Below are positions 3,476 to 19,747 of a DNA stretch of 20,499 bases, one piece after another (position 1 is the stretch's first letter; every line of letters begins with the position of its first letter). This DNA is from a virus, in the UHGV virus genome UHGV-0263856, one strand, 5' to 3'. The notes below the pieces were generated by a model. That model worked only from the letters and a program-made list of their open reading frames with translations. It made no database searches and was not told where the DNA came from. The translations under genes were made by a program, and so were the position numbers.

Positions 3476-3539
3476 TTGTTTAGTTTGCCATCGTGTACAA
3501 AATCAGCAAAATATCAGATTTACACGAAATGTACGCGAT

Positions 3540-4585: not shown

Positions 4586-4597
4586 CAGTCACCTCTT

Positions 4598-5593: not shown

Positions 5594-5639
5594 CTCAGCG
5601 AACGGTATTGCATGAACGCAGGAGAAAAAAATTCAGCCA

Positions 5640-7294: not shown

Positions 7295-8199
7295 GCGGCA
7301 ACACCTCCGATACGAGAACGGTAGCTGGGCCAGTTAAACGACAACCAGTTGCGCCCGCCATCGGTGATCCTGTCGGCAATCCGGGGACTGATGAACGCCC
7401 ACAATTCTTCCGGTGAAAGATTGCTGATCAAGATAGTTGGCAAAATACCCTCATACCGGGCATTGATAATTTCCTGCAAAATGGCCATTTCAGCCGCACT
7501 GCCAAACTGAACGCCGACTTCGTCGACAATCAGCAAATCCAGTGACGCATAATGCTCAATGACGTCATCCGCTGTTTTTTCACTGTCATTCCGCCAGCAG
7601 TTTTTCACAGCCCGGGTAAGGCGCATCACGTCGGTGATCTCCACACTGGCCAGATAGTTACGGATGATGTGTTTTGCCATTGATACCGCCAGATGATTTT
7701 TCCCGGTACCGCAACTGCCGGTCATAACAAGACTGGTACCGTTCTCCAGCATATCTGGCCAGTTCTCCGCATAGCGGCGACAGGCCGCAAGATTTCTGGC
7801 TGCGTCAGGATTAACCTCCAGATAATTATCAAACTCGCAGTCCCGAAAACGCAGAGCAATTCCGGCGTTATCAGTCAGTTCTTCCGCCTTGAGGGACGAC
7901 AGTTCCATGGTCAAATCACTGGCCTCAGCGATCAAGCAGTCAGGGCAGCATGAAATTTTTTCTCTGTCCTCGCCATTACGATCGATCCACACCAGTATAT
8001 GCGTACGATATTTACCGTGTTTTTCGCAATATCCGCGACCTTCACGCATCAGGCAGGAACGATAAGGCCATGGCTTTTCGCCCTTCTGAGCAAATGCAAT
8101 CTCTGCCCGTAACTCATCCATTTCTGCCCGTAACTCATCCATTCGCGCCTGTAGTCTTGTTTGTTTCTCACGTTGGTCAATCGTCATCATCGCTGTCAC
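7291..8199 (-). CDS. DnaC/IstB-like AAA+ helicase loader with Cys-rich N-terminus
   Basis: 302 aa. GSCGTGKNHLAVSMA (Walker A), LLIVDEVGVQ (Walker B), C-terminal WLSFNWPSYRS like DnaC. N-terminal Cys cluster CEKH...CCPDC. Contains the 21-bp tandem duplication at 8103-8144. Confidence 0.8.
   Translation of the reverse strand: MTAMMTIDQREKQTRLQARMDELRAEMDELRAEIAFAQKGEKPWPYRSCLMREGRGYCEKHGKYRTHILVWIDRNGEDREKISCCPDCLIAEASDLTMELSSLKAEELTDNAGIALRFRDCEFDNYLEVNPDAARNLAACRRYAENWPDMLENGTSLVMTGSCGTGKNHLAVSMAKHIIRNYLASVEITDVMRLTRAVKNCWRNDSEKTADDVIEHYASLDLLIVDEVGVQFGSAAEMAILQEIINARYEGILPTILISNLSPEELWAFISPRIADRITDGGRNWLSFNWPSYRSRIGGVAA
8103..8144. repeat. 21-bp tandem duplication inside the DnaC-like gene
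   Basis: ctgcccgtaactcatccattt / ctgcccgtaactcatccattc, 20 of 21 identical and in frame, encoding MDELRAE twice. Confidence 0.9.
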
Positions 8200-8200
8200 C

Positions 8201-9187
8201 TCAGAATGTCAATTTGTTACTGGATTTACCGAATTTGTCAGACATGGCTCCCAGGCCAGCCAGGACATCGACCTGTCGCTGTCGCCCACCTCCGTGAGCG
8301 GCTGGCTGTTGCCAGTAATCTTCGAAGTGACGATCGGGTCCAAAGAACGTCGCAGCCTGCTTCACGAACTGTGTGCCGGTATTTCCTGTAGCACGTACCC
8401 AGGCGGCATACCGCTTCACGCCATCAAGCATGGTCTCCGGTTTTATTCCCTCCCTGATACGGGCTTTCCAGGCTTTGAAGGCCGCTGACTTGGAATTGCC
8501 ACCAGCACGTTTGGGATATTCCTGCCAGGCCTGTTCAAATTCCGGTGAATATTCCTGTCGGGCAGAACGCGCAGACGCGTCAGCGGATGCATCAATAGTG
8601 TTTTTAGTCTCCGTTGTAATCTCTGTAGTAATCTCTGTATTTGTATCAACATTCGGCGTATCCCCTGTTCCGTTATGACGTCGGGGGGTGTTCCGTTTTA
8701 ACGTAATAGCTGTATCGCTGATTGCATTATTGCTGTTACTTTCTGGCGAAACAGAAGAAGGTGTGGTGATGACCGCAATTGCCTGTGGGTTGATCCCGAC
8801 AAACAAAATATTGCTGCATTTCACCCCATCGAGCATTTCCACCGTGCGTAAATCCAGAGTAATAAACCCTGCATCGCGCAGACGCTTCAGCGCATCTGCG
8901 GTTTCCCTTTTCCCGAAACCAAACTGCTCAGCAAACGCCTGGTAGCTTCTTTGCAGTTTGTCGCCCTGAAAACGCTTGCGATATCCCAGCAACGCTCCGG
9001 TGTGCTCATCCCTGACCTCTGTCGGGCGGTACCAGTAAACGATCTCTGAAAGCAGAGCGATAGCCGTCGCATCCGGACGCCCACTGGGTAGTCGAATATA
9101 TTTCCACCAGTTCGCAGGTGTAACATTGCCGGAAATATTAATTTGACCAATAGCCATAACTTCCGGTGTGGGGGCGTAACGGCTCAT
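8201..9187 (-). CDS. Replication initiator (lambda O-like role)
   Basis: 328 aa. Directly upstream of the DnaC/DnaB-like genes, with a mid-gene low-complexity linker (TEITTEITTE, DASADASARSA) that carries iteron-like repeats, as in lambda where ori lies inside O. Confidence 0.55.
   Translation of the reverse strand: MSRYAPTPEVMAIGQINISGNVTPANWWKYIRLPSGRPDATAIALLSEIVYWYRPTEVRDEHTGALLGYRKRFQGDKLQRSYQAFAEQFGFGKRETADALKRLRDAGFITLDLRTVEMLDGVKCSNILFVGINPQAIAVITTPSSVSPESNSNNAISDTAITLKRNTPRRHNGTGDTPNVDTNTEITTEITTETKNTIDASADASARSARQEYSPEFEQAWQEYPKRAGGNSKSAAFKAWKARIREGIKPETMLDGVKRYAAWVRATGNTGTQFVKQAATFFGPDRHFEDYWQQPAAHGGGRQRQVDVLAGLGAMSDKFGKSSNKLTF
8605..8652. repeat. Iteron-like 12-bp direct repeats (candidate ori) inside the initiator gene
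   Basis: tagtctccgttg / taatctctgtag / taatctctgtat / ttgtatcaacat: four adjacent 12-mers, the central two near-perfect. Confidence 0.45.
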
Positions 9188-9483
9188 ACAACCTCCTTCC
9201 GCGGCATGAGAATTGTGTAGCCACGCGCAGGTTGTAGTCTGGCTTTTGCATCAATAGTAAGCGTTGCAATTTTTCGGATATGAAGATAACCAGCTCTTTC
9301 CAGTGCCAGGGTTTCCCTGAATATCGCTTGCTTAGAACAACAGCAGAAATCAGCAAGCACCTGATGATCAATAACTCTCTCGCCTTCACCGTCTGAAGAA
9401 CCCGACATCAAAACACGCAACATAATTAGGCGCTGAATCGGGTTATCGAAAGCACATCCGCACACAAACTGAAAACAGTTCAC
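9184..9483 (-). CDS. Hypothetical HTH protein (cII-position)
   Basis: 99 aa. HQVLADFCCCSKQAIFRETLALERAGYL resembles an HTH. Start and stop each overlap neighbours by 4 nt. Confidence 0.4.
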   Translation of the reverse strand: MNCFQFVCGCAFDNPIQRLIMLRVLMSGSSDGEGERVIDHQVLADFCCCSKQAIFRETLALERAGYLHIRKIATLTIDAKARLQPARGYTILMPRKEVV

Positions 9484-9704
9484 GCCACACCTCCCAGACG
9501 CTTAAACATTTTTCCAGACAGAAATACCGCCAGAGGGTAACTGATGGTGTAGCTACGCCCCTGTAGTTCGCACACGACTTTCTGGCTTTCAGCGTTGACT
9601 AGGCAAACCCGCAGAACGTGACCGTTGCTGGTGGCGAACCACTGCCCCACACGGGGGCAACGGTTGTATCGGTGATACAGGGAATTAACGATGTGGCGGA
9701 TCAT
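9480..9704 (-). CDS. Hypothetical protein
   Basis: 74-aa ORF, translationally coupled (4-nt overlaps) on both sides. Confidence 0.4.
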   Translation of the reverse strand: MIRHIVNSLYHRYNRCPRVGQWFATSNGHVLRVCLVNAESQKVVCELQGRSYTISYPLAVFLSGKMFKRLGGVA

Positions 9705-9895
9705 GGACGCACCTCCACCGTAGTTACGTATTTAACCGGGCTACCTTTCATTGAGATGGTTTCACACATCTCTGCCGCTTTCAGTTCCGCTGTTTTTCTG
9801 GATTTATAGCGACGGTGCCAGACAGATACATCCGTGCGAACTGATACATCGTTTCTGTATTCCGTAGTGGAGATGATGATTTCGTAACTAATCAT
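9701..9895 (-). CDS. Hypothetical protein
   Basis: 64-aa ORF, translationally coupled on both sides. Confidence 0.4.
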   Translation of the reverse strand: MISYEIIISTTEYRNDVSVRTDVSVWHRRYKSRKTAELKAAEMCETISMKGSPVKYVTTVEVRP

Positions 9896-10443
9896 GGGCG
9901 AACCTCCTTGTCAGAACCATTCAGCCTGGAATCAACAAGTGCAGCGCCAAAAACAGCATCACCAACACGGTCGTACAGTTTGCTAGCCAGCGGAGATTCA
10001 ACGGCCTTAAGCATTGGATAAAGCTGGCTTGTCCAGATTTGATGGATTTCACGCAAATGCAGGTATACGCCTCTGGCGTTTCGTGCGACAGCTGACATAT
10101 CAGACGCATCGGCACCTGATAAACTCTTCTCCATCAGGTTAAAGGCGTTGATGTATGCCTCTTTGAACCGGGCTGCACGTTTGCCAGTAAAGCCCATAGC
10201 AAGGAACGCGAAGCCATCACGGGTGATTTGATAGCAAGGTAGTTTGCGGCCTGTGCAATCGGTGTAATCACTCACCGAAAAATTGCGGGCAGTGAATGAT
10301 GCGGAGCATTCAAGCGTGCGGATCTTTTTCAGTACATCGTCATGACGCTTGGAGAAGAAGTTGGCAACAGCCAGGGATGAAGTAACAGCCTGACCATCAA
10401 CGATGGCAATTTCAGGTTGAGTGAGGGTTGGGATCGTAGCCAT
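9892..10443 (-). CDS. Rha-family phage regulatory protein
   Basis: FSKRHDDVLKKI and DGFAFLAMGFTGKRAARFKEAYINAFN match the Rha domain as recalled. GGAGG 8 nt before the ATG at 10443. The ORF track extends in frame to 10743 but that N-terminal 100 aa is low-complexity with no SD. Confidence 0.6.
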   Translation of the reverse strand: MATIPTLTQPEIAIVDGQAVTSSLAVANFFSKRHDDVLKKIRTLECSASFTARNFSVSDYTDCTGRKLPCYQITRDGFAFLAMGFTGKRAARFKEAYINAFNLMEKSLSGADASDMSAVARNARGVYLHLREIHQIWTSQLYPMLKAVESPLASKLYDRVGDAVFGAALVDSRLNGSDKEVRP

Positions 10444-10828
10444 GATGGCAGCCTCCGTTGACTGTGGAAAACTTCCACCACCGGAGCTGCGAAACTCACT
10501 GGTGGCAGACTGAACAGGGTTCGCAGTACCGGCGTCAACGGAAACCGGCGAGCCTTTCGGCTCCCCTGCCCAGCCCACCATAATTCTGGCGTGCGTGAGC
10601 GCGGACGATAAAAAAGACGCTGGCGCGTCATATATCGCCGTTGACAATTCCGGGCTGCGACCCCCGGCACCCGCTTTATAAGGTGCAGAGACAGTGTAAC
10701 GTCCCGAAATTGCAGAATCAATATTTGGTCTTGAAATGATCATATAGCTGCTGATATCTTTAGAACTGTTCTTGGATGTTTCGGAGCCGTTTTATGCGAA
10801 ACAGCTCCCCGTTATTGATGTTGAGTGA

Positions 10829-10852
10829 GCCGGGTTACTCCCGGCTTTTTTT
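10829..10852 (+). terminator. Intrinsic terminator oriented opposite to the flanking genes
   Basis: + strand: GCCGGG / TTACT / CCCGGC followed by T7. It abuts the stop codon of the convergent - strand gene 10852-11559. Confidence 0.6.
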
Positions 10853-11559
10853 CACCGCTGCCAACCAATAACCTGAAATAACCCCATTTTCGGGTGATAC
10901 CAGCGAGTCCCTCGCGGTTCTGCTTCCTCCATAACCCGATAAAAAGCAGCCATAAACGGTTCCACAGCAACAATTGCGCGACGTGACAACAATCCGTCCG
11001 GCGTCATGAACTCATGGGTGTCTGTAGGAATCTGATAGGCGTTCACCAGATTGCGGCATTTATCATCTGACAAACCGGTTTTTGCTTTCAGTTGGCGATA
11101 TCCGGCATAGCCCTCACGAATAGTGCCCTTTTTAATTTGCTCGACTGTTTCAGCAACGTGGCTGACTTTTTCTTCCACCTGAGTGATCCGTTTCTGTTGG
11201 CGAACGGCTTCAAGAGCCATCGCGGCAACCATTTCGATTTCGCTCATTGGCTTACGGATCTGTTCTTCCAGTTCGCGCCAGCGATCTACCAGGCGAGCAG
11301 TGAATTCAGGACAGAGCTGTGCGACGACAATGATGCTGTCGCGCTTACCTTGTTCTCCTTCAAACAGGTAATGCTCATATTGAACTTTAAAACCTAAGTT
11401 ATTGATTCTTTCGGAAACCTCAATTTGAGGAGACCGGACAACGCCACCTTTGGCTAATGTTTCAATAGTGCGTTTCACATTGTCATGACGTTTACCCACC
11501 AGCTCTGCGATCTCAACGCTGGTCATGGATGCTTTGCCGTTAAAAATTGCGGTGTTCAT
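10852..11559 (-). CDS. Rha/antirepressor-like phage regulatory protein
   Basis: 235 aa. N-terminal SVEIAELVGKRHDNVKRTIETL (Rha-type motif). AGGAGA 6 nt before the ATG at 11559. Confidence 0.55.
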   Translation of the reverse strand: MNTAIFNGKASMTSVEIAELVGKRHDNVKRTIETLAKGGVVRSPQIEVSERINNLGFKVQYEHYLFEGEQGKRDSIIVVAQLCPEFTARLVDRWRELEEQIRKPMSEIEMVAAMALEAVRQQKRITQVEEKVSHVAETVEQIKKGTIREGYAGYRQLKAKTGLSDDKCRNLVNAYQIPTDTHEFMTPDGLLSRRAIVAVEPFMAAFYRVMEEAEPRGTRWYHPKMGLFQVIGWQR

Positions 11560-11783
11560 TGTTGGTCTCCTGTGGGCTTGTCATCTTCTGTATTCGCTAG
11601 ACTTGGGTGTGTATATGGAATGCTCGGATCCAGATGACAAAGAATGGCAACATCCTCCGGAACACCTCGCGTTTTCCACTTTCCAACACCTTGACTGCCA
11701 CGAGGCCTTCCTTTCTTTGGGAACCTGCGACCAATAGCGGCATTGGTTTTAAATTGAATTTTTAATATTTCATAAAGGGTCAT
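11556..11783 (-). CDS. Small basic ORF in the Cro position (no recognisable HTH)
   Basis: 75 aa, Arg/Lys/Gly/Pro-rich. Its stop overlaps the next ATG (ATGA). Weak SD; coding status uncertain. Confidence 0.3.
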   Translation of the reverse strand: MTLYEILKIQFKTNAAIGRRFPKKGRPRGSQGVGKWKTRGVPEDVAILCHLDPSIPYTHPSLANTEDDKPTGDQQ

Positions 11784-11894
11784 TCTTTAGTCTCACACCA
11801 GATACTTTGTTATCCAACGATGTTAACCACGGGAATCCAAAGTATCAAGAAATTCTGTTACTTTAGTATCAACAGCCATGAGAGGAGAAGAAAA
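11784..11894. promoter_or_regulatory. Divergent immunity control region (OR with PR/PRM candidates)
   Basis: Motif copies at 11803-11811 (reverse orientation), 11840-11848 and 11864-11872. Candidate - strand PR: -35 TTGATA (rc of 11843-11848), 17-nt spacer, -10 TAACAT (rc of 11820-11825). Candidate PRM -10 TAGTAT at 11864-11869. Confidence 0.5.
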
Positions 11895-12551
11895 ATGAAG
11901 TCTTTAGGTGAACGTCTCATCAACGCACGGCAAAAAGCTGGGTTAACACAAGATGCGTTGGCTAAAAAAGCTGGGATCACCAGAGTTGCAATCAGTAAAG
12001 CCGAGCAAGGCCTTACAAAAAGTTTCAACGGTGACACCCTTTTTAAAGTTGCAGCTGCACTGCGGTGTTCACCGCAGTGGCTTCAGAACGGAGATGAAAA
12101 AGATAAGCATTGGGAAAATAATGTTAAGAGCTGCCCACAGAGAGACACAGCACACTCTTACCCTGTAATTAACTGGGTTCAGGCAGGATTATTCGCAACT
12201 TCTGGTGATGACTACAACATGTATGATCAGGATAATTGGAGGCATTCTGTAAAATACGCTGGTGAGAGGGGGTTCTGGCTGGAAGTGCACGGAGACTCAA
12301 TGACTTCGCCCGTAGGAATAACATTTCCTGAAGGAATGTCGATCCTTGTCAACCCAGATAAAGAAGTTTTTTCAGGGTGTTACGTCATCGCCAGAAAAAA
12401 ATCGACCAATGAAGCAACATTCAAAAAATATATTTCTGACATGGGAAAGGCGTTTCTAAAGCCCCTTAATCCACAATATCCAATCATAGAAATGGACAAT
12501 GATTGCGAAATAGTAGGTGTTGTGGTTGATGCCAGGTGGGATATTTTCTGA
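11895..12551 (+). CDS. cI: CI-like prophage repressor (HTH plus S24 LexA-type peptidase domain)
   Basis: AGGAG 8 nt before the ATG at 11895. N-terminal LTQDALAKKAGITRVAISKAEQG (HTH), C-terminal WLEVHGDSMTSP...GCYVIARKK (Ser/Lys autocleavage dyad). Confidence 0.9.
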   Translation: MKSLGERLINARQKAGLTQDALAKKAGITRVAISKAEQGLTKSFNGDTLFKVAAALRCSPQWLQNGDEKDKHWENNVKSCPQRDTAHSYPVINWVQAGLFATSGDDYNMYDQDNWRHSVKYAGERGFWLEVHGDSMTSPVGITFPEGMSILVNPDKEVFSGCYVIARKKSTNEATFKKYISDMGKAFLKPLNPQYPIIEMDNDCEIVGVVVDARWDIF

Positions 12552-12654
12552 CCAGACACAAAACACAAAAAGAAACCAAAGTATCAAAAATCACTTGCCA
12601 CACCTTGATACCTTAGTTACCATAAAACAAAGTTCGTAACTGAGGTATCATCTC
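12552..12654. promoter_or_regulatory. OL/PL-like control region
   Basis: Motif copies at 12579-12587 (aagtatcaa), 12605-12612 (ttgatacc, reverse orientation) and 12643-12650 (ggtatcat). Candidate -35 TTGCCA at 12595-12600. Confidence 0.45.
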
Positions 12655-13155
12655 ATGATCAATAAAGCTACAACTCTTGACTGTCTCGAAGAACTGAAAA
12701 ACCTCGGCAGCCTCATTACACTAATAGCAAAAGCAACACCTGATGCTACGCTCTCTAGCGATATAGAGTCATGCGCAGGACTGGCATGGGATATGACAAA
12801 TAGCATATCCAGAAAGCTATCGTCAGCAATGCTTTTACAGAACAAAAATTCTGCAATCAACAACCGTCTTCGCACCCAACGCGAAGCCTGCGGCTTAACA
12901 ACCGCCGAACTCGCCAGGCTGCTCGATCTCGATGAAGAAATTATCATCCAGTGGGAGAGCGGAGAGTATGAACCAACTATCAGTATGCTTATCCCACTGG
13001 CAAATATTCTTGGCTGCGATCCGATGTGGCTGTTAACTGGTGAGGTTACTCCTCCGGAGCAACCAAAAAGTGAGGAGCAGCAACACCATGACGCATCTCA
13101 ACAAGTTTGCCCCTTATCTCGCGAAGCTCTTCTGCGGAAGAACCAATACCAATAG
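12655..13155 (+). CDS. HTH (XRE-type) protein, first gene of the early-left operon
   Basis: 166 aa. C-terminal half LRTQREACGLTTAELARLLDLDEEIIIQWESGEYEPTISMLIPLANILGCDPMWLL is a classic XRE HTH. N-terminal ~90 aa unassigned. Confidence 0.65.
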   Translation: MINKATTLDCLEELKNLGSLITLIAKATPDATLSSDIESCAGLAWDMTNSISRKLSSAMLLQNKNSAINNRLRTQREACGLTTAELARLLDLDEEIIIQWESGEYEPTISMLIPLANILGCDPMWLLTGEVTPPEQPKSEEQQHHDASQQVCPLSREALLRKNQYQ

Positions 13156-13286
13156 TGACATAATCGCCGCTTCGCCCTTCAAGGTACATGCGAACATTTT
13201 TATCAATCATTGCGGAAACAGTCTCAATATGAAAACACTTCTGAGACTCGCTATATAGCAGAACATATAAGTCAGCTGAGGAAGCC

Positions 13287-13652
13287 ATGAAAAAGTTCGA
13301 AAACATAACTGTTCTCCATGTTGATGACTTTGATTATACAAACCCGGAACTTCTCCCGGAGGTTGTAAAGGCAATAGATGTTGCCGATATAGTGATTAGA
13401 GAAAAGAGAATTGTCAAAAACAGGCTCGCATGCACTTCAGGAGCAATGACAGAAACAACCTCACAGCAAGATAATTACGAAGGCATTTGTCTGGAGCCTG
13501 ATTCATTTGCGGTAAATGTTTATCATTTATTGCATGCAACACAGGTATTACATATGTCCAGTAATCACGAAACGAAAACACTCGGCAGCGAAATTCTGAG
13601 TTTTGCATGTGAGTATACAAAAGCTGCTGCCGAAAAAGAATTAGCGCAATAA
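13287..13652 (+). CDS. Hypothetical protein
   Basis: 121 aa. GAGGAAG SD before the ATG. AT-rich. No motif recognised. Confidence 0.55.
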   Translation: MKKFENITVLHVDDFDYTNPELLPEVVKAIDVADIVIREKRIVKNRLACTSGAMTETTSQQDNYEGICLEPDSFAVNVYHLLHATQVLHMSSNHETKTLGSEILSFACEYTKAAAEKELAQ

Positions 13653-13730
13653 CAACAAATATGCCCTGAACGTTTATTGCGGTTTTATCGCCGGGGATTG
13701 TTACAACCTTAATCCACAGGAGGCTTTATT

Positions 13731-13844
13731 GTGACTTTTATAAAGAATATGGCATCACACAAGACCGCCTGCCTTATTGCACAATACGGTGAAAATTACA
13801 TGCATATTGCCTGCTTATTTCTGCGTAAAGCATACGGGAGATAA
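13731..13844 (+). CDS. Candidate small ORF (37 aa) upstream of 13847
   Basis: GGAGG 7 nt before the GTG at 13731 (in-frame ATG at 13749). Stop is 2 nt before the next ATG. Below the ORF-track length cutoff. Confidence 0.3.
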   Translation: MTFIKNMASHKTACLIAQYGENYMHIACLFLRKAYGR

Positions 13845-13846
13845 TA

Positions 13847-14041
13847 ATGCATCAGAAAACAGCAGAACACGAACAAACCAGAATATTGCTGACCATCAAA
13901 AACGGGAAAGTAATATTCATTCGCCATGTTCATGACGATGAACTTGTAGGAACTCTTTCAACATTCCTGTTTATTGCAGAAAGGGCAGGATATGACGTTA
14001 TTGCACCAGCAGATGAAGATGAAGATGAAGATGAGGAATAA
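13847..14041 (+). CDS. Small protein with poly-acidic C-terminal tail
   Basis: 64 aa ending APADEDEDEDEE. GGGAG SD. Confidence 0.5.
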   Translation: MHQKTAEHEQTRILLTIKNGKVIFIRHVHDDELVGTLSTFLFIAERAGYDVIAPADEDEDEDEE

Positions 14042-14046
14042 ATATC

Positions 14047-14628
14047 ATGCAATACGATGAATTCCAGGCTGAAGCAACAGCCAATGGTATACGAACTGGC
14101 AGTATGACGATTGATTATCACGACGCCATACGTCGTCTGGATGCCGGAGAATTCGATACTCCTAATGTGCGAGGTTTACGTATCCTTCAGTGTCTGGCGC
14201 AAGCCGACGAAGCAGGATTACTGGGTAAACTTCCGGTTGAGATGAAGGTTGCTCAGTGGCGATGGTTGTATGTGACGACATTCATCAACGAAGAAGAAGA
14301 CAAGAACGGCACAATTGATATCCTGAATGAACACGGAACAACTGAACACGCCGTGGTATATAACGGGATGTATGGGTTTATGACGATATATCCCGGCCCC
14401 ATTCGATTTGCCTTACAACAGTATATTGAATGGAATTTAATTCAAAAATACGGCGAAGCTGAAGGAATGGGAAGAGCGCTGTTTCTTTATCAGAAAATGC
14501 TCACTACTTCCCCTGATAAAGGTTTCATTCTTTCAGATATGGGTCGAGAAGGGCTTGAAATCCTTCTGGATGAAATTATTAACGAAATGAATACTCATGG
14601 CATGCAATCCGAAACAGATATTAAGTAA
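14047..14628 (+). CDS. Hypothetical protein
   Basis: 193 aa. GAGGA SD. No motif recognised. Confidence 0.6.
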   Translation: MQYDEFQAEATANGIRTGSMTIDYHDAIRRLDAGEFDTPNVRGLRILQCLAQADEAGLLGKLPVEMKVAQWRWLYVTTFINEEEDKNGTIDILNEHGTTEHAVVYNGMYGFMTIYPGPIRFALQQYIEWNLIQKYGEAEGMGRALFLYQKMLTTSPDKGFILSDMGREGLEILLDEIINEMNTHGMQSETDIK

Positions 14629-14638
14629 AAGGGACCAC

Positions 14639-14887
14639 ATGACCGTTATCGAGTATATCCAGGAAAATCCAGATTGCAGTAGAGAAGATATATCCCTCGC
14701 ACTTGGAAGAAGCGCAACTTCTATCAGTAATGAATTATCACGGTTATTGTGGAATGGGTTAATAGTACGAACTGGAGAAAAAAACAAAATGATTCTGTAC
14801 TGCGTAAACAATCTGCCGTTTGGATACAGCAATCCCCTAAGTGTTATGTTCAACCAGTTACTTAAACAGGTAAGAAATGGCAACTGA
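14639..14887 (+). CDS. Small winged-helix-like DNA-binding protein
   Basis: ATG at 14639 preceded by AAGGG. EDISLALGRSATSISNELSRLLWNGLIV looks HTH-like. The ORF track's alternative start 14597 overlaps the previous gene and lacks an SD. Confidence 0.5.
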   Translation: MTVIEYIQENPDCSREDISLALGRSATSISNELSRLLWNGLIVRTGEKNKMILYCVNNLPFGYSNPLSVMFNQLLKQVRNGN

Positions 14888-15194
14888 CTCACAACTAACC
14901 ATAGAAACGGCCCTGAATGTCGGCCTGGCGCTCCTTGGTTATTTTTACATCGTGTTCTGCAGCGGACGGTGGCTGTCGCTGTTGTTCCTGAAAAAATGGA
15001 ATAAACGCCGTAAGCAGGATGAACGCCAGAAGGCAATGAATGCGTTTTCCGAAGCCTTCGGAATTGACGGCATGGAACCAGGGGATCCAGCTCGCGCAAT
15101 CAGCAGAGGGGGTGTAGTAATCCTTGTATATCGGAGTGAAGAGAAAAATGACGATCACAAAACAACGAGTAGAAAAAATCATATATCGCCATGA
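14877..15194 (+). CDS. Small membrane protein (one TM helix)
   Basis: 105 aa with LNVGLALLGYFYIVFCSGRWLSLLFL. The 3' end overlaps the next ORF by about 47 nt, so the true extent is uncertain. Confidence 0.4.
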   Translation: MATDSQLTIETALNVGLALLGYFYIVFCSGRWLSLLFLKKWNKRRKQDERQKAMNAFSEAFGIDGMEPGDPARAISRGGVVILVYRSEEKNDDHKTTSRKNHISP

Positions 15195-15462
15195 AATGGG
15201 ACTGAACAGCGATGTCACTGCCGAAGAGGTTTATGACCTGGCTGTACTGGCGCTGAATTTATCAAATATCGCAAACCTGAAGCGATACGAGCTTGATATG
15301 GATGGTTGCGACTCGTGCGGTCAGGATTGTGGCGCAGATATGACTGAAGATCCTGATGGTGATTATGTCCTGTTTGATGACGTGGTTAAGTTGTTTGAAT
15401 TTGATACAACCACTCAAAAGTTAGAAATCCCGGCAAAGGAGGCTGCCAGTGAGCAAGATTGA
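15148..15462 (+). CDS. Hypothetical acidic protein
   Basis: ATG at 15148 with an upstream purine-rich stretch. C-terminus acidic with CDSCGQDCG. Confidence 0.45.
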   Translation: MTITKQRVEKIIYRHEMGLNSDVTAEEVYDLAVLALNLSNIANLKRYELDMDGCDSCGQDCGADMTEDPDGDYVLFDDVVKLFEFDTTTQKLEIPAKEAASEQD

Positions 15463-15631
15463 CTATCAGGCACTGCGCGAGGCGGCGGAACAGGCAACGC
15501 AAGATGAATGGGTAGCATATATTTGCCGGGTCATAACGGCATTTATCCTGCGCGCACGTCTGAGGGTAGGCATTGCGGATACTTTATTGACTGGCCTGGC
15601 GTCTGTCAGGGGCGGGAGAGCATCAACATGA
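15449..15631 (+). CDS. Ea22-like N-terminal module (possibly the 5' part of a frameshifted Ea22-like gene continuing in 15628-16134)
   Basis: AAAGGAGG SD and GTG start. MSKIDYQALREAAEQATQDEW is paralogous to the start of 16131-16616. The rest of the ORF is Arg-rich and looks out of frame. Confidence 0.35.
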   Translation: MSKIDYQALREAAEQATQDEWVAYICRVITAFILRARLRVGIADTLLTGLASVRGGRAST

Positions 15632-16134
15632 GCATCAGAACCTACGCAGTGAATTGCAATGACGCATGGCTAAACACCGAAGGTGATGACATCTCCGGCT
15701 CATACGTTAAGTACAAAGACCATCAGGAAGTGGTTGCCGCTCTTGAGGCCAAGTGCGCGGCGCTGGCAGCGGAGAATGCGGGAATAAAGTCTGCAATTCC
15801 AGAATCACGGGATATTGAGGATGACAATGACAATATGGATGACGTATCTCTCGCGGAAGACTTCGGGTTCAATCATGCAATAGAACGGATGAGGAGACAG
15901 ATACCTGAAACGCCAACCACTGATGCTTTCCTGGCTGAAGTCCGGGCGCAGGGGGTGGACGCTGCTATAGAAGCTGCAAAAAATCTGGTGGCCCAAGAAT
16001 ATGAGTATAAGGATTTCAAAGCGGCGCAGAGTGATTGCTGTATGTACCCTGGTTCAGACCTGGTAGGGAAGGTTGAAATGACTGAGTGGTTAGTTGACTT
16101 TGCTGCCCAGCTTCGCAAAGGAGGCAACCAGTGA
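15628..16134 (+). CDS. Hypothetical protein (Ea22-like body suspected)
   Basis: GGGAGAG SD before the ATG at 15628, which overlaps the preceding stop (ATGA). 169 aa. Confidence 0.55.
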   Translation: MSIRTYAVNCNDAWLNTEGDDISGSYVKYKDHQEVVAALEAKCAALAAENAGIKSAIPESRDIEDDNDNMDDVSLAEDFGFNHAIERMRRQIPETPTTDAFLAEVRAQGVDAAIEAAKNLVAQEYEYKDFKAAQSDCCMYPGSDLVGKVEMTEWLVDFAAQLRKGGNQ

Positions 16135-16616
16135 GCGAAATTAATTACCAGGCACTGCGTGAGGTGGCGGAACGTGCAATTCCAGCAATGGAACGCCTGT
16201 TAATGTTGCCAGCTGATGATGACTTGTTAAGTGAACAGGAACTTAAAGATTACGGTGTGGATATTGATGCGCTCAACGCCTTCAAATTTCTGACCGGACC
16301 AGAAACCGTGCTGGCACTGCTGGATGAACGGGAAAGAAACCTGCAATACATCAAAAGCCGCGATCAGGAGAACGAGGATATTGCGCTAACGGTAGGGAAG
16401 CTGCGCGTTGAGCTTGAAGCAGAAAAACAGCGGGCAAAAGTTCTATTTATGGAAAATGCTCGGCTTAAGTCAGGCATAGCCGGTCTGATACACCTCGGTA
16501 TTCGATATGCAGATGTTGAGGTCATGAAAATTGCTGGAGATGCCCAGCTTTCTACCCCATGCACTGACAGCATCATAAACAGCATTGCAACAGGCATTCG
16601 CATCAAAGGAGAGTGA
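16131..16616 (+). CDS. Ea22-like family protein
   Basis: AAAGGAGG SD and GTG start. N-terminus MSEINYQALREVAERA; coiled-coil-like middle. Confidence 0.5.
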   Translation: MSEINYQALREVAERAIPAMERLLMLPADDDLLSEQELKDYGVDIDALNAFKFLTGPETVLALLDERERNLQYIKSRDQENEDIALTVGKLRVELEAEKQRAKVLFMENARLKSGIAGLIHLGIRYADVEVMKIAGDAQLSTPCTDSIINSIATGIRIKGE

Positions 16617-16617
16617 T

Positions 16618-17133
16618 ATGGCGTTAACACACCACGAACTCTGTCAGATTGCGTACAAGTTCCTTAAGCGCAACGGGTTCAAGGTTTGCTTTCATGACCG
16701 CTTTGTTGCTGTAACCAGTACCGGAGAACAGCCAGATGCTATGGGATTCAGAAATTCAGCATCATGCCTGATAGAGGCGAAGTGTTCTCGTGCTGACTTG
16801 TTGGCAGATAGAAAAAAGCGTTTCCGTAAAAATCCCTCACTTGGCATGGGCGACTGGCGATTCTTTATTAGTGAGCCGGAAATTATTTCAGTTGAGGATT
16901 TACCTCCCGGCTGGGGATTACTTCACGTTGTTAACGGAAGAGTACGGAAAGTACATGGATGGCCCAGGGGTAATTGCTGTTGGGGTAATCCTGACGATAA
17001 GCCATTTACTGGGAATAAGCAGGTTGAATGCGATTACATGTTATCTGCATTAAGGCGCATGGAGTTGAGAGGGCACCTTAATGAAATATATGACGGTGTG
17101 ATTGTTAATAAGAAAGAAGGAAACGCGGCATGA
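16618..17133 (+). CDS. PD-(D/E)xK-type nuclease-fold protein (MmcB-like suspected)
   Basis: AAAGGAGAG SD before the ATG at 16618. Motif GEQPDAMGF...CLIEAKCSRADL fits the PD...(D/E)xK signature. Confidence 0.5.
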   Translation: MALTHHELCQIAYKFLKRNGFKVCFHDRFVAVTSTGEQPDAMGFRNSASCLIEAKCSRADLLADRKKRFRKNPSLGMGDWRFFISEPEIISVEDLPPGWGLLHVVNGRVRKVHGWPRGNCCWGNPDDKPFTGNKQVECDYMLSALRRMELRGHLNEIYDGVIVNKKEGNAA

Positions 17134-17315
17134 TCACTATTACCAAAGGGCGACTGCTGACAATCAAGCAGTGGCGCGAAACATACGGACCGGGTAGCAA
17201 CGTTGTACTGCCAGCAGAAGAAGCGGAAGAACTGGCACGAATTGCACTGGTATCGCTGGAAGCAGAGCCGGTTGTGTTCTGGTTTGAAAAATATCAAGAA
17301 GGGGCTACGGCATGA
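17130..17315 (+). CDS. Hypothetical small protein
   Basis: 61 aa. Shares the [10 protein letters not shown]-encoding 26-bp repeat with the next gene. Confidence 0.45.
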
Positions 17316-17656
17316 CGACTTTTACCAGAGAGCAGTTAATAGCTCACGCAGAGGAGACTATTGAAGCACAGAGACTGTGCATACCGGGTACAATCGACCA
17401 TGACATCATCCGCACATATAAGATGGATATTGCTGTTCTGGAAATCGCACTGGTATCGCTGGCAGCAGAGCCAGCCGGTAAATTGCATGAATACAAACCA
17501 GTGGGATATCAGCGTCTGGTCGATGAGTTAACCATGCTGGTAAAGCAGTTAACCTGGCAACTGAGGAAAGCGAAGCCAGACTGCAAATTACCGGATAAGG
17601 CGATGAGTTATCTGGAGCGGAACGGACTGATAAGCGTGGAGGATATTTTACGATGA
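17312..17656 (+). CDS. Hypothetical protein
   Basis: 114 aa. 4-nt start/stop overlaps with neighbours. Confidence 0.5.
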
Positions 17657-17736
17657 CCTGGCCTGAAGCATTAACAACGGTAGGAATTGCGATGGCGGTG
17701 ACGCTGATGGTGTATTCGATTTGCCGCTGGGGATAA
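17653..17736 (+). CDS. Candidate 27-aa hydrophobic peptide
   Basis: ATG overlaps the preceding stop. [27 protein letters not shown] is a single TM-like helix. GGAGG 11 nt upstream. Confidence 0.3.
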
Positions 17737-17740
17737 CCAC

Positions 17741-17983
17741 ATGTTCGCTTTGATTCAACGCGGTCAGATATACACGGACAGAGCCGGATACCCCGTGGTG
17801 ATTACTCGCATCACTGAGCACTCAGTGTTCTTTCGACGGATGGACGGACGATCCGGGCGGGTACGCATTGGTGAGTTAAACTGCCTGTTCGAACATATTG
17901 ACCACCAGGAGTACCGCAAAATTCTCGCGGACACTGAGCAGGAAAAGCACCTGAAAAAATTACGAGCCATAAAAAGGAAGTAA
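17741..17983 (+). CDS. Hypothetical protein (DUF4222-like suspected)
   Basis: 80-aa ORF; the family name is recalled, not verified. Confidence 0.5.
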   Translation: MFALIQRGQIYTDRAGYPVVITRITEHSVFFRRMDGRSGRVRIGELNCLFEHIDHQEYRKILADTEQEKHLKKLRAIKRK

Positions 17984-17986
17984 AGA

Positions 17987-18133
17987 ATGAATAAAGCATT
18001 TGAACGATGGGTCCACCAGCGTTACGGCAATCGCTATGACCTGACGCGAGATGTTGACGGCTTCTACTGTCGTGAAGTTGTGAAGCGAATGTTTGAAGTG
18101 TGGTGCCACTGCCGTGGGCTGAGTGTTGTGTGA
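17987..18133 (+). CDS. Candidate small Cys-containing protein (48 aa)
   Basis: AGGAAG 6 nt before the ATG. Contains C..(n)..CHC. Below the ORF-track cutoff. Confidence 0.35.
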   Translation: MNKAFERWVHQRYGNRYDLTRDVDGFYCREVVKRMFEVWCHCRGLSVV

Positions 18134-18141
18134 GGTAATAC

Positions 18142-18378
18142 ATGGGCAATGTGATTCAACTGGCTCCCAATGAATGGGTTTGTGAAAGCGTTCTTATCGC
18201 AATTACCGGGCTCAAACCAGGCACAATTCTTCGGGCCCGGAAAGAATGCTGGATGGTTGGAAGAGAGTATATTCACGTATCACCAGACGGTAATCCAAAG
18301 CCTTCCAGTGAATGTATGTATAACAGAAAAGCAATAGATGCCTGGGTCGCCTCAATGAAAAACAAACAACCCAGGTGA
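18142..18378 (+). CDS. xis: Excisionase (Xis-like)
   Basis: 78 aa immediately upstream of int. RARKECWMVGREYIHVS resembles lambda Xis (RRWVRECRIF...GREYLFHES). Confidence 0.6.
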   Translation: MGNVIQLAPNEWVCESVLIAITGLKPGTILRARKECWMVGREYIHVSPDGNPKPSSECMYNRKAIDAWVASMKNKQPR

Positions 18379-18433
18379 TTTAATATCATGAAATATGTAA
18401 GCTCGTATCGCTCTTGGGCGTCTGGAGGTATCG

Positions 18434-19747
18434 ATGGATAAAGTCAAATATCCAACAGGCGTCGAAAACCACGGCGGCACATTACGCATCTGGTTTAATT
18501 TTAAAGGTAAACGTGTCAGGGAAAATCTTGGTGTCCCTGACACTGCCAAGAACAGGAAGATCGCCGGGGAACTGCGGACATCAGTATGTTTTGCCATCCG
18601 CACAGGAAGCTTTGATTATGCTGCACAGTTCCCTGACTCCCCCAACCTTCAGGCTTTTGGGGTAAGTAAAAAAGAAATTACGGTGAAGGAACTTGAAGAA
18701 AAGTGGCTGGATCTGAAACGAATGGAAATCTCTGCAAATGCATTCAATCGCTATGAATCCGTTGCAAGAACGATGGTTCCGAAAATTGGAGGCAGTAGAC
18801 TGGTGTCATCGGTAACCAAAGAGGAATTGCTGTATATCAGGAAAGATTTGCTTACCGGGTATCAGAATTCAACGAAAAACAAAGCAGCAGCAAAAGGACG
18901 GAGCGTCGTTACTGTAAATTATTACATGACGACAATCGCTGGAATGTTTCAGTTTGCTGCAGATCACGGTTACTTAGAAGCAAATCCCTTCCAGGGAATT
19001 AAGCCTCTTAAAAGAGCCAGGGCAGAGCCAGATCCGCTAACTCGTGACGAATTTATTCGCCTGATAGATGCTTGCCGACATCAGCAGACGAAAAACCTGT
19101 GGTCATTGGCTGTGTACACAGGAATGCGTCACGGTGAACTGGTCTCCCTGGCCTGGGAAGATATCGATCTGAAGGCAGGAACAATTACCATCAGGCGCAA
19201 TTATACGAAACTTGGTGAGTTCACTCTACCGAAAACTGAAGCAAGCACAAACAGGGTTGTGCACCTTATCCAGCCCGCTATCAGTGTCCTGAAAAATCAG
19301 GCTGAAATGACAAGACTGGGTAAGCAGTACAACATCAAGGTGCAACTACGTGAATATGGACGTTCAGTGAACCATGAATGTACTTTCGTGTTTAACCCTC
19401 AAGTGGTTAGAAAAAGCGAACAGGTAGGTTTTGTCTACAAAGTCGATTCTGTAGGTGACTCATGGGAAACAGCCATTAAGCGTGCAGGGATCAGGCATCG
19501 AAAGGCATACCAGTCACGACACACTTATGCGTGCTGGTCATTATCTGCCGGAGCAAACCCAAGCTTCATTGCCAGCCAGATGGGCCATGCAAGTGCCCAG
19601 ATGGTATTCAATGTATACGGAGCATGGATGACTGACAGCAATGCAGAACAGATCGCAATGCTGAATCAGAAGCTGACAGATTATGTCCCAATGATGCCCC
19701 ATAGTCACCAAAGTGACACCAGAGGCTTATTAAAATCAGTAAGTTAA
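18434..19747 (+). CDS. int: Tyrosine-type site-specific integrase
   Basis: 437 aa. GGAGG SD. C-terminal catalytic region TGMRHGEL...SRHTYACW...GHAS...VYGAWM (R, HxxR, Y). Confidence 0.9.
   Translation: MDKVKYPTGVENHGGTLRIWFNFKGKRVRENLGVPDTAKNRKIAGELRTSVCFAIRTGSFDYAAQFPDSPNLQAFGVSKKEITVKELEEKWLDLKRMEISANAFNRYESVARTMVPKIGGSRLVSSVTKEELLYIRKDLLTGYQNSTKNKAAAKGRSVVTVNYYMTTIAGMFQFAADHGYLEANPFQGIKPLKRARAEPDPLTRDEFIRLIDACRHQQTKNLWSLAVYTGMRHGELVSLAWEDIDLKAGTITIRRNYTKLGEFTLPKTEASTNRVVHLIQPAISVLKNQAEMTRLGKQYNIKVQLREYGRSVNHECTFVFNPQVVRKSEQVGFVYKVDSVGDSWETAIKRAGIRHRKAYQSRHTYACWSLSAGANPSFIASQMGHASAQMVFNVYGAWMTDSNAEQIAMLNQKLTDYVPMMPHSHQSDTRGLLKSVS

What the first reader, a model, noticed from the sequence alone, without database searches (positions are those of the whole stretch)
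12552..15462. Early-left arm lacks any recognisable recombination module and instead carries a run of unassigned AT-rich genes
Where lambdoid phages usually encode N, cIII, kil, gam, bet, exo, this phage has an XRE-HTH protein followed by at least six ORFs (121, 37?, 64, 193, 82, 105, 105 aa) with no motif I can place. Most have good SDs and tight spacing. Early-left accessory regions commonly carry anti-restriction, anti-defence and exclusion genes, so this is a second candidate island.
Basis: partly seen in the sequence, partly recalled or inferred. Interest (0 to 1): 0.65.

Follow-up and report, generated by a model that had tools for sequence, protein, structure and literature searches.

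The report
Recombination-less, Chi-rich lambdoid early-left operon
This is the repressor-controlled early-left operon of an E. coli lambda-like prophage that really has no recombination genes, but this is a known phage lifestyle (many Chi sites that recruit the host's RecBCD instead), and the unassigned genes are widespread prophage "hypotheticals" with no evidence of an anti-defence role.

Summary
Between cI (11895-12551) and xis/int (18142-19747) there is no Bet/RecT/Erf/Sak, Exo/RecE, Gam/Abc2, N or cIII by Pfam, PHROGs or NCBIfam. The listed ORFs exist, have Shine-Dalgarno sites and show dN/dS of 0.14-0.41. GC is 42.9% against about 50% in the right arm.

It is not unusual. The window is a lambda-like prophage at yecE with a phiP27-type early region. 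22% of enterobacterial lambdoid phages lack a Rec module and carry many Chi sites in the active orientation (Zheng 2025; Bobay 2013). This window has 11 Chi sites where 0.87 are expected. A 99.85%-identical full prophage has 9 active and 3 inactive sites, all in the right half. Two relatives have 16:3 and 11:3.

Three OL operators and a promoter at 12572-12651 make the XRE gene the first PL gene, so the + strand ORFs should be silent in the lysogen.

It forms a conserved trio with the XRE gene and the 121-aa gene. Two "unplaceable" ORFs are a winged-helix protein and DUF4752.

The 193-aa protein has a confident model with no fold match. Nothing supports an anti-defence role. New member of a known kind.

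The parts
11895..12551 (+). cI-type repressor: HTH_3 plus Peptidase_S24 with a GDSM motif, so LexA-like and SOS-cleavable
   Evidence: Pfam Peptidase_S24 4e-22 and HTH_3 2e-14; phrog_4 2e-53. The start codon follows the PGAP call.
11801..11872 (.). OR region. Operator-like 16-bp sites lie at 11833-11848 and 11857-11872, with a weaker one at 11801-11814, between the cro-like gene and cI.
   Evidence: the repeat finder; pattern search.
12572..12651 (.). OL region. Three operator sites of the TTGATAC-N4-G-N-T-N-C type lie at 12572-12587, 12605-12620 and 12636-12651.
   Evidence: Five of the six window-wide matches to the pattern fall in the two regions flanking cI, against 1.3 expected; 0 of 100 shuffles reach 6. 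A 15-nt inverted repeat is 93% complementary.
12595..12623 (+). PL-equivalent promoter-like site, TTGCCA-17-TACCAT, overlapped by the middle OL site
   Evidence: Consensus scan, which on its own is not above chance. The assignment rests on its position among the operators.
12655..13155 (+). First PL gene. It encodes a 166-aa XRE-family regulator with an N-terminal domain (1-65) that travels with the immunity region, an HTH (70-130), and a tail (131-166) that overlaps the antisense gene.
   Evidence: HTH_3 3.7e-11; phrog_4739 7e-98; phrog_4836 'CII-like regulator' 1.4e-40. Mosaic breakpoint near 12868. dN/dS 0.14.
13046..13306 (-). Antisense 86-aa gene, the homologue of phiP27 L09 (phrog_6104). 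It is convergent with XRE, overlapping it by 110 nt, and overlaps the 121-aa gene by 20 nt. PGAP does not annotate it.
   Evidence: phrog_6104 1.4e-49. dN/dS 0.19 over 86 codons against ASU11, where it fills an otherwise non-coding gap. Homologues occur in Escherichia, Salmonella and Citrobacter at the same position. GGAG lies 7 nt before the ATG. AF2 core pLDDT is above 90 with no fold match.
13287..13652 (+). 121-aa protein, the homologue of phiP27 L08. Its C-terminal domain (69-115) is paralogous to the N-terminal domain of alternative alleles of the XRE regulator.
   Evidence: phrog_5451 1.7e-83. The full length is conserved down to 45% identity. 43% identity over 47 aa to the N-domain of the PhiR49_2 regulator, E 9e-10.
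13731..13844 (+). 37-aa basic ORF with a GTG start and an AGGAGG Shine-Dalgarno site. It is probably a gene but the evidence is weak.
   Evidence: Annotated and 89% identical in Stx1_14040. dN/dS 0.23 rests on 8 substitutions. No family hit.
13847..14041 (+). 64-aa acidic protein with a poly-D/E tail
   Evidence: phrog_340 9e-23. Weak matches to the C-terminal parts of annotated anti-repressors (phrog_4792 1.4e-6, phrog_2379 1e-3).
14047..14628 (+). 193-aa acidic protein of an uncharacterised family with an orphan alpha/beta fold
14639..14887 (+). 82-aa winged-helix (MarR-like) DNA-binding protein. PGAP does not annotate it.
   Evidence: phrog_1687 1.3e-24. Pfam MarR_2 9.5e-5, below the cut-off, and HTH_24 6e-4. 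dN/dS 0.25.
14877..15194 (+). DUF4752 protein, 105 aa, with one predicted membrane helix at residues 12-30
   Evidence: PF15944 7e-37. Kyte-Doolittle maximum 1.67.
15148..15462 (+). 104-aa very acidic protein (pI 4.1). It overlaps DUF4752 and travels with it as a cassette.
   Evidence: phrog_3126 4.9e-64. The same overlapping pair sits in the nin region of a Rac-like O157:H7 prophage.
15449..17656 (+). Rest of the accessory run. It comprises a frameshifted Ea22 gene (15449-16134), an Ea22 gene (16131-16616), a 171-aa ORF with a D..ExK motif (16618-17133), a 61-aa ORF and a 114-aa ORF.
   Evidence: Pfam Ead_Ea22; PHROGs of unknown function. PGAP flags.
17741..19747 (+). DUF4222 gene, a 48-aa ORF, excisionase (18142-18378) and tyrosine integrase (18434-19747). 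Host yecE begins at 19774.
1841..18020 (-). Eight Chi sites (GCTGGTGG) on the minus strand, which is the lambda top strand and the active orientation. They start at 1841, 5084, 5355, 5708, 6358, 8499, 11496 and 18013. Three more on the + strand start at 1027, 4955 and 9627.
   Evidence: 11 sites against 0.87 expected; 0 of 100 shuffles reach 11. Orientation logic comes from PMC12315714.

Best explanation
The region is the cI-repressed early-left (PL) operon of a lambda-like, cos-packaging prophage integrated at yecE. Its immunity and early region is of the phiP27 type.

Shown:
- Transcription would start at a promoter at 12595-12623. The promoter sits among three operators that match those between cro and cI.
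- The operon opens with a conserved trio. It consists of an XRE regulator, an antisense 86-aa gene, and a 121-aa protein whose C-domain is a paralogue of regulator N-domains.
- Mosaic accessory cassettes follow: orf37/64/193/winged-helix, DUF4752/orf104, and the Ea22 genes.
- The operon ends with xis and int.
- It carries no phage recombination module and no RecBCD inhibitor.

Inferred:
- The phage belongs to the known 'no Rec module, Chi-rich' class of lambdoid phages.
- It would make the concatemers needed for packaging by recruiting host RecBCD and RecA through Chi sites. These are oriented for RecBCD entry from the right cos end.
- The nin-region RusA resolvase and the DUF968/HNH protein probably help.
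- The trio is most likely regulatory.
- The remaining small acidic or membrane proteins are accessory early proteins of unknown target, expressed only after induction or infection.
For: Lambdoid layout. The gene order is Q, RusA, DUF968/HNH, DnaB, loader, O-like, two Rha genes, cro-like, cI, the early-left run, xis, int, then yecE. Lambda-type terminase, head and tail genes are also present.

Operators and promoter..

No Rec, N or cIII families. None was found in Pfam, PHROGs or NCBIfam for any early-left ORF. The largest unknown protein has no SSAP-like fold match.

Chi sites.
- The window has 11 against 0.87 expected.
- The 99.85%-identical full prophage has 9 active and 3 inactive sites.
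- All 12 lie at virion-map positions 0.53-0.97 (p about 1e-4) and none lies in the structural half.
- ASU11, recovered by mitomycin C induction, has 16:3. PhiR49_2, deposited as a complete phage genome, has 11:3. Both share the early-left core.

Published class definition. It requires no Rec module, at least 8 active and at most 6 inactive Chi sites, and clustering towards the right end. 68 of 314 phages meet it (PMC12315714). Rec-minus lambdoids have a Chi observed/expected ratio of 3.1 (PMC3784561). phiP27 was already noted to lack N, cIII and cII (PMC3430580).

Trio conservation. It is conserved across different repressor types in E. coli, Salmonella and Citrobacter.

Absence of Rec genes in relatives. 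All seven annotated relatives (phiP27, ASU11, PhiR49_2, Stx1_14040, FRIK1989, RMDEC332, S1-JOR-02-A) have none annotated between cI and int. The same holds for the part of that arm shown for two unannotated loci, L016 and L017.
Against: - Dependence on RecBCD is inferred from the class, not shown for this phage.
- A 3rd- or 4th-order Markov model already expects about 5 Chi sites on the active strand. Part of the excess may therefore be compositional.
- The 9:3 strand bias alone is not significant (p = 0.07). The pooled 36:9 is not independent, because the phages share modules.
- Total Chi density of the prophage (12 in 49.7 kb) is close to the E. coli average. Only the clustering and orientation stand out.
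- Five protein families in the region have no assigned function, so an unrecognised recombination or anti-RecBCD function cannot be excluded.
- The promoter call is a consensus match only.
Confidence: 0.8

Rival explanations
1. The run of unassigned genes would be an anti-restriction, anti-defence or superinfection-exclusion island that occupies the slot of the recombination module. This is not exclusive of the main explanation.
For: - The products are small and mostly acidic: pI 4.1-5.0 for L08, orf64, orf193 and orf104.
- The segment after L08 is swapped for other cargo in prophages that share the flanks. That cargo includes a ParE-like toxin, an SPFH protein, an ORF6N protein and a beta-clamp-domain protein.
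- The DUF4752/orf104 cassette moves between the early-left and nin regions.
- GC content is low.
Against: - PADLOC gives no hit beyond generic HTH matches.
- No Ocr, ArdA, Gam, Abc2, Lar or Ral-type family appears in Pfam or PHROGs.
- The orf193 fold matches nothing known.
- The genes sit behind a cI-operator-controlled promoter, so they would not be expressed in the lysogen for exclusion.
- Three products are regulators or regulator-domain paralogues.
- The phage already carries a DNA methyltransferase downstream of Q, a conventional way to evade restriction.
Confidence: 0.22
2. A non-canonical recombination function would be hidden among the unknowns. The best candidate is the 193-aa protein, which sits mid-operon where Rec modules normally lie.
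For: [quoted passage not shown]
- The family recurs at the same position in other prophages with no recognisable Rec genes. It also lies next to a primase in a P4/PICI-like element.
- The authors of the class paper concede that unrecognised functions cannot be excluded.
Against: - There is no Foldseek hit in BFVD and no PDB profile hit.
- No Pfam hit was found in 45 family members.
- The gene is absent from equally Rec-less relatives that share the flanks: phiP27, ASU11 and RMDEC332.
- The Chi signature argues that the host pathway is used.
Confidence: 0.06
3. The prophage would be a decaying remnant that lost its Rec module by deletion. Its Chi sites would have accumulated as they do in ordinary chromosomal DNA.
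For: - Some early-left genes are frameshifted or partial according to PGAP: one Ea22 gene and fragments near 16.6-17.2 kb.
- Overall Chi density is similar to that of the host.
- The class paper warns that cryptic prophages can gain Chi sites.
Against: - A complete set of lambda-type morphogenesis, lysis, replication and integration genes is present, with no IS elements.
- ASU11, recovered by mitomycin C induction, and phages deposited as complete genomes (PhiR49_2, phiP27, Stx1 phages) have the same Rec-less design.
- All ORFs are under purifying selection.
- No Chi site lies in the 26-kb structural half while 12 lie in the early half. That pattern is not what passive amelioration would give.
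Confidence: 0.05

Closest known systems
[quoted passage not shown] This is the LLS functional type of Zheng, Casjens, Davidson, Amundsen and Smith 2025 (PMC12315714), equivalent to the Rec-minus Inh-minus lambdoids of Bobay et al. 2013 (PMC3784561).
   Same: - Lambdoid gene order.
- No annealing protein, exonuclease, SSB or RecBCD inhibitor in the early-left operon.
- 9 Chi sites in the active orientation and 3 in the inactive one.
- Chi sites confined to the right half of the virion map.
- Lower GC in that half.
   Different: - The early-left genes differ. LLS and ST64B carry yfbR/yfdQ/yfdP-type genes, whereas this phage carries the phiP27-type XRE/L09/L08 trio and other cassettes.
- RecBCD-dependent growth has not been tested for this phage.
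- I could not check whether phiP27-type phages are in their panel, because the supplement is not held.
Early-left region of phage phiP27 (AJ298298; ORFs L10, L09, L08) and of yecE-integrating Stx phages such as Stx1_14040 and ASU11
   Same: - The same cI repressor, 94% nucleotide identity with phiP27 and 94% amino-acid identity with Stx1_14040 (ASU11, like PhiR49_2, carries a different repressor).
- The same XRE gene, antisense L09 and L08 genes.
- The same xis/int and attachment site.
- phiP27 was already reported to lack N, cIII and cII.
   Different: - The cargo after L08 differs. phiP27 has L07, L06, a serine protease L05, L04 and L03.
- phiP27 has non-lambda morphogenesis genes and an insertion between L10 and L09.
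- Stx1_14040 and ASU11 have a two-HTH version of the regulator.
Phage lambda PL operon (N, ral, sieB, cIII, kil, gam, bet, exo, xis, int)
   Same: - Position and orientation relative to cI.
- Three OL operators around the promoter.
- xis and int at the distal end.
- Ea22-type genes next to xis.
   Different: - There is no N, cIII, kil, gam, bet or exo.
- The first gene is an HTH regulator rather than an antiterminator.
- An antisense protein-coding gene lies inside the operon.
- Lambda has no Chi sites.
SinR/SinI-type regulator and antagonist pairs. This is a functional analogy only, recalled from general knowledge.
   Same: A small protein (L08) carries a copy of the non-DNA-binding domain of a neighbouring HTH regulator. 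The match is to the PhiR49_2 allele, at 43% identity over 47 aa; ASU11's regulator carries a similar N-domain by eye only.
   Different: - In this window the regulator's N-domain shows no detectable similarity to L08 (hhalign probability 0.2%).
- No interaction has been tested.
- There is no sequence relationship to SinR or SinI.

Membership tests
No-Rec-module, Chi-rich lambdoid phages (Zheng et al. 2025) | [quoted passage not shown] | tested here: met
   Annotation of the window's 99.85%-identical counterpart and my own family scans.
No-Rec-module, Chi-rich lambdoid phages (Zheng et al. 2025) | No strand-annealing protein, exonuclease, SSB or anti-RecBCD protein in the early-left operon | tested here: met
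   Every ORF from 11820 to 18378 was scanned against Pfam, PHROGs and NCBIfam without such a hit. The orf193 model has no SSAP-level fold match. Unknown families remain, so absence is shown only at the level of recognisable families.
No-Rec-module, Chi-rich lambdoid phages (Zheng et al. 2025) | At least 8 Chi sites in the active (lambda top-strand) orientation and at most 6 in the inactive orientation | tested here: met
   9 active and 3 inactive in the full prophage of NZ_CP145634. The window alone has 8 and 3.
No-Rec-module, Chi-rich lambdoid phages (Zheng et al. 2025) | Chi sites concentrated towards the right end of the virion map | tested here: met
   All 12 sites lie at map fractions 0.53-0.97 and none lies in the structural half (p about 1e-4).
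No-Rec-module, Chi-rich lambdoid phages (Zheng et al. 2025) | Growth enhanced by host RecBCD | not testable with these tools
   This needs plaque or burst assays on recB, recC and recD hosts.
Lambda Red / RecET / Erf / Sak recombination modules | Presence of a Redbeta/RecT, Erf, Sak (Rad52-like) or Sak4 annealing protein, with an Exo/RecE-type nuclease | tested here: not met
Lambda N antitermination and cIII | An N-family arginine-rich antiterminator as the first PL gene, and a cIII homologue | tested here: not met
   The first PL gene is an XRE HTH protein. No N or cIII family was hit. The literature reports the same for phiP27. nut-like RNA sites were not searched.
Known anti-phage defence systems (PADLOC-DB) | A match to a defence-system protein model beyond a generic DNA-binding domain | tested here: not met
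   Only HTH-level hits (RmrA, capH, CasR/CARF HTH parts) for the XRE and winged-helix proteins. The other eight proteins gave nothing apart from one chance-level Cas11a hit (E 0.03) for the antisense ORF.
Known anti-restriction and anti-defence proteins (Ocr, ArdA, Gam, Abc2, Lar, Ral and similar, as represented in Pfam and PHROGs) | Profile match to such a family | tested here: not met
   None. No dedicated anti-defence library was available.
XRE/Cro-C1 HTH regulators | HTH_3-type domain above the Pfam threshold | tested here: met
   XRE166 scores 43.3 bits against a cut-off of 23.
MarR / winged-helix regulators | Winged-helix domain above a curated threshold | tested here: inconclusive
   Pfam MarR_2 scores 22.9 bits (cut-off 27) and HTH_24 scores 19.8 (cut-off 21.9). 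phrog_1687 'MarR family' gives E 1.3e-24.
DUF4752 | PF15944 above the gathering score | tested here: met
   125.8 bits against 27.
GIY-YIG nuclease domain (considered for the antisense 86-aa protein) | GIY and YIG motifs with a catalytic Arg/Glu in a beta-beta-alpha-beta-alpha core | tested here: not met

The most novel reading that the evidence does not exclude
The 193-aa orphan-fold family would be a so far unrecognised DNA-transaction factor. It has about 100 clusters at 50% identity. It sits in the Rec-module slot of prophages without recognisable Rec genes and beside the primase of a P4/PICI-like satellite. It could be a new kind of recombination mediator or a modulator of RecBCD-Chi recombination. 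If so, 'Rec-less' lambdoids would not be entirely dependent on the host.
Probability: 0.07. Interest if true: 0.75.

Novelty: new member of a known kind. Interest (0 to 1): 0.3.

Why it matters
The absence of a recombination module is not an anomaly that needs a new explanation. This prophage is one more example of the alternative lambdoid strategy, in which Chi sites recruit host RecBCD. That matters for predicting phage growth on rec mutants. It also bears on mosaicism, since Rec-minus phages exchange fewer genes, and on Stx phages that share this early region.

Three smaller results come out of the analysis:
- A conserved three-gene unit at the head of PL includes an antisense protein-coding gene that the standard annotation pipeline misses.
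- A regulator-domain paralogue (L08) suggests a testable regulator and partner pair.
- A moderately large protein family has a confident but unmatched fold.

None of these is yet linked to a phenotype.

Tried and rejected

2. AFDB50 fold search. The library was unavailable.

3. Homology between the XRE166 N-domain and the L08 C-domain. BLASTP found no alignment and hhalign probability was 0.2%. It is not supported for this allele, although it holds for the PhiR49_2 allele and looks likely by eye for ASU11.

5. orf171 (16618-17133) as a PD-(D/E)xK nuclease. There is no Pfam or PDB sequence hit. An IMG/VR scan returned only 98-100% identical copies, so no profile could be built. Left as an untested lead.

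6. Rfam scan of 11400-18500. Nothing was found.

7. Promoter and terminator scans. Counts were not above shuffled expectation, so they were used only in combination with the operators.

8. Literature searches for DUF4752 and PhiR49 returned nothing. The phiP27 genome paper is not held.

9. Conserved partner genes for orf193. Neighbours differ between loci: ORF6N, a ParE-like protein, or small unknowns.

Full report
**What the window is**

The 6-kb stretch around the finding is 99.9% identical to chromosomal prophages in several E. coli genomes. The whole window aligns at 99.85% over 210-20499 to NZ_CP145634.

The PGAP annotation and my own family scans give a lambdoid layout.
- Minus strand: DNA methyltransferase, Q, RusA, a DUF968/HNH protein, DnaB-type helicase, loader, O-like initiator, two Rha proteins and a cro-like gene (11556-11783).
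- Plus strand: a LexA-like cI (11895-12551), the run of ORFs in question, Ea22 genes, DUF4222, excisionase (18142-18378), integrase (18434-19747), and then host yecE.

The rest of the prophage carries lambda-type terminase, head, tail and lysis genes.

**Check of the observation**

All listed ORFs exist with the stated lengths. Most have GGAG/GAGG-type ribosome-binding sites.

GC is 42.9% in 12552-15462, 50.2% in the right arm and 51.7% in the whole prophage.

Against the roughly 89%-identical Stx1_14040 phage every ORF shows dN/dS of 0.14-0.41. They are genes, although the 37- and 64-codon ORFs rest on few substitutions.

No ORF between cI and int matches Bet/RecT, Erf, Sak, Exo/RecE, Gam, Abc2, N or cIII in Pfam, PHROGs or NCBIfam.

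Four corrections apply.
- The 82-aa ORF is a winged-helix, MarR-like protein (phrog_1687, E 1.3e-24).
- One 105-aa ORF is DUF4752 with a hydrophobic helix.
- The run of unknowns continues to about 18.1 kb.
- A minus-strand gene was missed (see the trio below).

**Control of the operon**

A 16-bp motif (TTGATAC-N4-G-N-T-N-C, one mismatch allowed) occurs six times in the 20.5-kb window, against 1.3 expected. No shuffle out of 100 reaches six.

Five of the six copies lie in the two regions flanking cI.
- Two lie between cro and cI, with a weaker third.
- Three lie at 12572-12587, 12605-12620 and 12636-12651.

A TTGCCA-17-TACCAT promoter-like site at 12595-12623 sits among the second group.

This is the classical OR/OL arrangement. 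It makes the XRE gene (12655) the first PL gene, in the position of lambda N. The inference is that the + strand ORFs are repressed in the lysogen. That argues against a role as lysogen-expressed exclusion genes.

**The missing recombination module is a known lifestyle**

Zheng, Casjens, Davidson, Amundsen and Smith (2025, PMC12315714) found that 68 of 314 enterobacterial lambdoid phages have no recognisable Rec module. Of these, 62 carry at least 8 Chi sites in the active orientation and at most 6 in the inactive one, concentrated towards the right end. Phage LLS, the type example, grows better with RecBCD.

Bobay et al. (2013, PMC3784561) had earlier shown that Rec-minus lambdoids over-represent Chi about threefold. 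Smith et al. (2012, PMC3430580) noted that phiP27 lacks N, cIII and cII.

I tested the Chi prediction.
- The window has 11 GCTGGTGG sites against 0.87 expected; 0 of 100 shuffles reach 11.
- Eight are on the minus strand. That is the lambda top, or active, strand, because cro through Q run on it.
- The full 49.7-kb prophage of NZ_CP145634 has 9 active and 3 inactive sites.
- All 12 lie at virion-map fractions 0.53-0.97 and none lies in the structural half (p about 1e-4).
- ASU11, recovered by mitomycin C induction, has 16:3. PhiR49_2, deposited as a complete phage genome, has 11:3. Both share the early-left core.

Three caveats apply.
- Higher-order Markov models already expect about 5 sites on the active strand.
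- Overall Chi density is near the E. coli average.
- The 9:3 bias alone gives p = 0.07.

The right arm supplies only RusA and a DUF968/HNH protein as recombination-related functions.

**A conserved trio at the head of the operon**

*The XRE regulator.* XRE166 has an N-terminal domain that travels with the immunity region and an HTH shared with other phages. The mosaic breakpoint lies near 12868. In Stx1_14040 and ASU11 the same regulator has two HTH domains.

*The antisense gene.* The minus-strand ORF 13046-13306 is convergent with XRE and overlaps its 3' tail by 110 nt. It is 86 aa, belongs to phrog_6104 and corresponds to phiP27 L09. PGAP does not call it. Several results show it is real.
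- In ASU11 it fills an otherwise non-coding gap.
- dN/dS is 0.19 over 86 codons.
- Homologues in Escherichia, Salmonella and Citrobacter sit at the same antisense position, between an XRE gene and an L08 gene, in prophages with different repressors.
- It has a GGAG ribosome-binding site.

*The 121-aa protein (L08).* It is conserved over its full length. Its C-terminal domain is 43% identical over 47 residues (E 9e-10) to the N-terminal domain of the PhiR49_2 allele of the XRE regulator. ASU11's regulator carries a similar-looking N-domain, by eye only. No similarity to this window's own XRE N-domain is detectable.

I infer that the trio is regulatory. It may work through convergent transcription and a regulator-partner interaction. 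Nothing here shows its mechanism.

**The remaining ORFs**

orf193 belongs to a family with 102 cluster representatives at E<=1e-3.
- None of 45 members has a Pfam hit.
- Neither of two profiles hits any PDB sequence.
- The AF2 model is good (pLDDT 83.9, pTM 0.80).
- Distant homologues occupy the same mid-operon position in other prophages with a cI, XRE, small ORFs, xis/int layout. One lies next to a primase in a P4/PICI-like element.
- Its neighbours are not conserved.
- The gene is absent from equally Rec-less relatives: phiP27, ASU11 and RMDEC332.

orf64 resembles the C-terminal parts of annotated anti-repressors only weakly.

DUF4752 and the overlapping acidic orf104 form a cassette. The same cassette also occurs in the nin region of a Rac-like O157:H7 prophage.

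The full 2.9-kb region is present in 118 of 5426 complete E. coli genomes, and parts of it in 906.

**Anti-defence reading**

PADLOC returns only generic HTH matches. No known anti-restriction or anti-defence family is hit.

The features in favour are small acidic products, low GC and cargo replacement between related prophages. These are generic properties of lambdoid accessory regions.

I rate this reading as possible for individual genes (about 0.2), but it is not supported as a description of the region.

**Verdict**

The sequence features are real. The interpretation as a striking absence plus a candidate anti-defence island is only partly supported.

The region is best described as the PL operon of a phiP27-type member of the known no-Rec-module, Chi-rich lambdoid class. 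It is a new member of a known kind.

Three points of residual interest remain: the unannotated antisense gene within a conserved trio, the L08/regulator domain relationship, and the orphan-fold 193-aa family.

Noticed in passing
window 13046-13306 (minus strand): A protein-coding gene antisense to the PL operon overlaps the 3' end of the XRE ORF by 110 nt and the 5' end of the 121-aa ORF by 20 nt. PGAP does not annotate it in the near-identical genomes. It is conserved in Escherichia, Salmonella and Citrobacter prophages.
   Followed up: yes
window 13287-13420 and its opposite strand: The two most conserved motifs of the L08 N-terminal half are MKKFENITVLH and IVKNRL. On the opposite strand they coincide with the ribosome-binding site and start of the antisense gene, and with a TTGACA hexamer. 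This suggests a dual coding and regulatory constraint.
   Followed up: partly
window 13044-13155; L002 5148-5798; L015 3724-4437: The XRE regulator occurs as a one-HTH form with a tail that reads through the antisense gene (this window, PhiR49_2, and probably L016 and L017). It also occurs as a two-HTH form (Stx1_14040 at 216 aa, ASU11 at 237 aa). The junction lies at the conserved WLLTG motif.
   Followed up: partly
window 16618-17133: A 171-aa ORF near int carries a D40...E53-x-K55 motif reminiscent of PD-(D/E)xK nucleases. It matches phrog_5429 'DNA repair protein' only weakly (E 0.005). It has no Pfam or PDB sequence hit. 396 related copies occur in IMG/VR, and the 80 retrieved are 98-100% identical. 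PGAP treats the area as frameshifted fragments.
   Followed up: partly
L005 6982-7570 (E. coli O157:H7 FRIK944): The overlapping DUF4752 and 104-aa acidic protein pair, followed by an Ea22 gene, lies in the nin (early-right) region of a Rac-like prophage. The cassette therefore moves between phage arms.
   Followed up: partly
L006 9284-14258 (E. coli RMDEC332): A prophage with the same cI, XRE, L08, xis/int and yecE site replaces the middle of the arm with other cargo. This includes a ParE-like toxin, IS600, an SPFH-domain protein, an ORF6N protein and a beta-clamp-domain protein.
   Followed up: no
L012 (Logan SRR21472526 contig, 12.6 kb): A P4/PICI-like element carries an integrase, Rha, Ash, an orf193 homologue, a primase and PerC. 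It has 15 Chi sites in 12.6 kb, 7 on one strand and 8 on the other, far above the host average.
   Followed up: no
window 15449-16134: The first Ea22-like gene is split by a frameshift (ORFs 15449-15631 and 15508-16134). PGAP flags the same in the near-identical genomes.
   Followed up: no
window 1-210 versus L001: The first 210 bases of the window do not align colinearly with the otherwise 99.85%-identical NZ_CP145634 prophage. Bases 101-212 match in inverted orientation near the tRNA and methyltransferase region.
   Followed up: no
window 677-1726 and the L001 tRNA cluster: A DNA methyltransferase and three tRNA genes (Arg, Arg, Ile) lie downstream of Q. They occupy the position where Stx phages carry stx. 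ASU11 has stx2 at that position.
   Followed up: no
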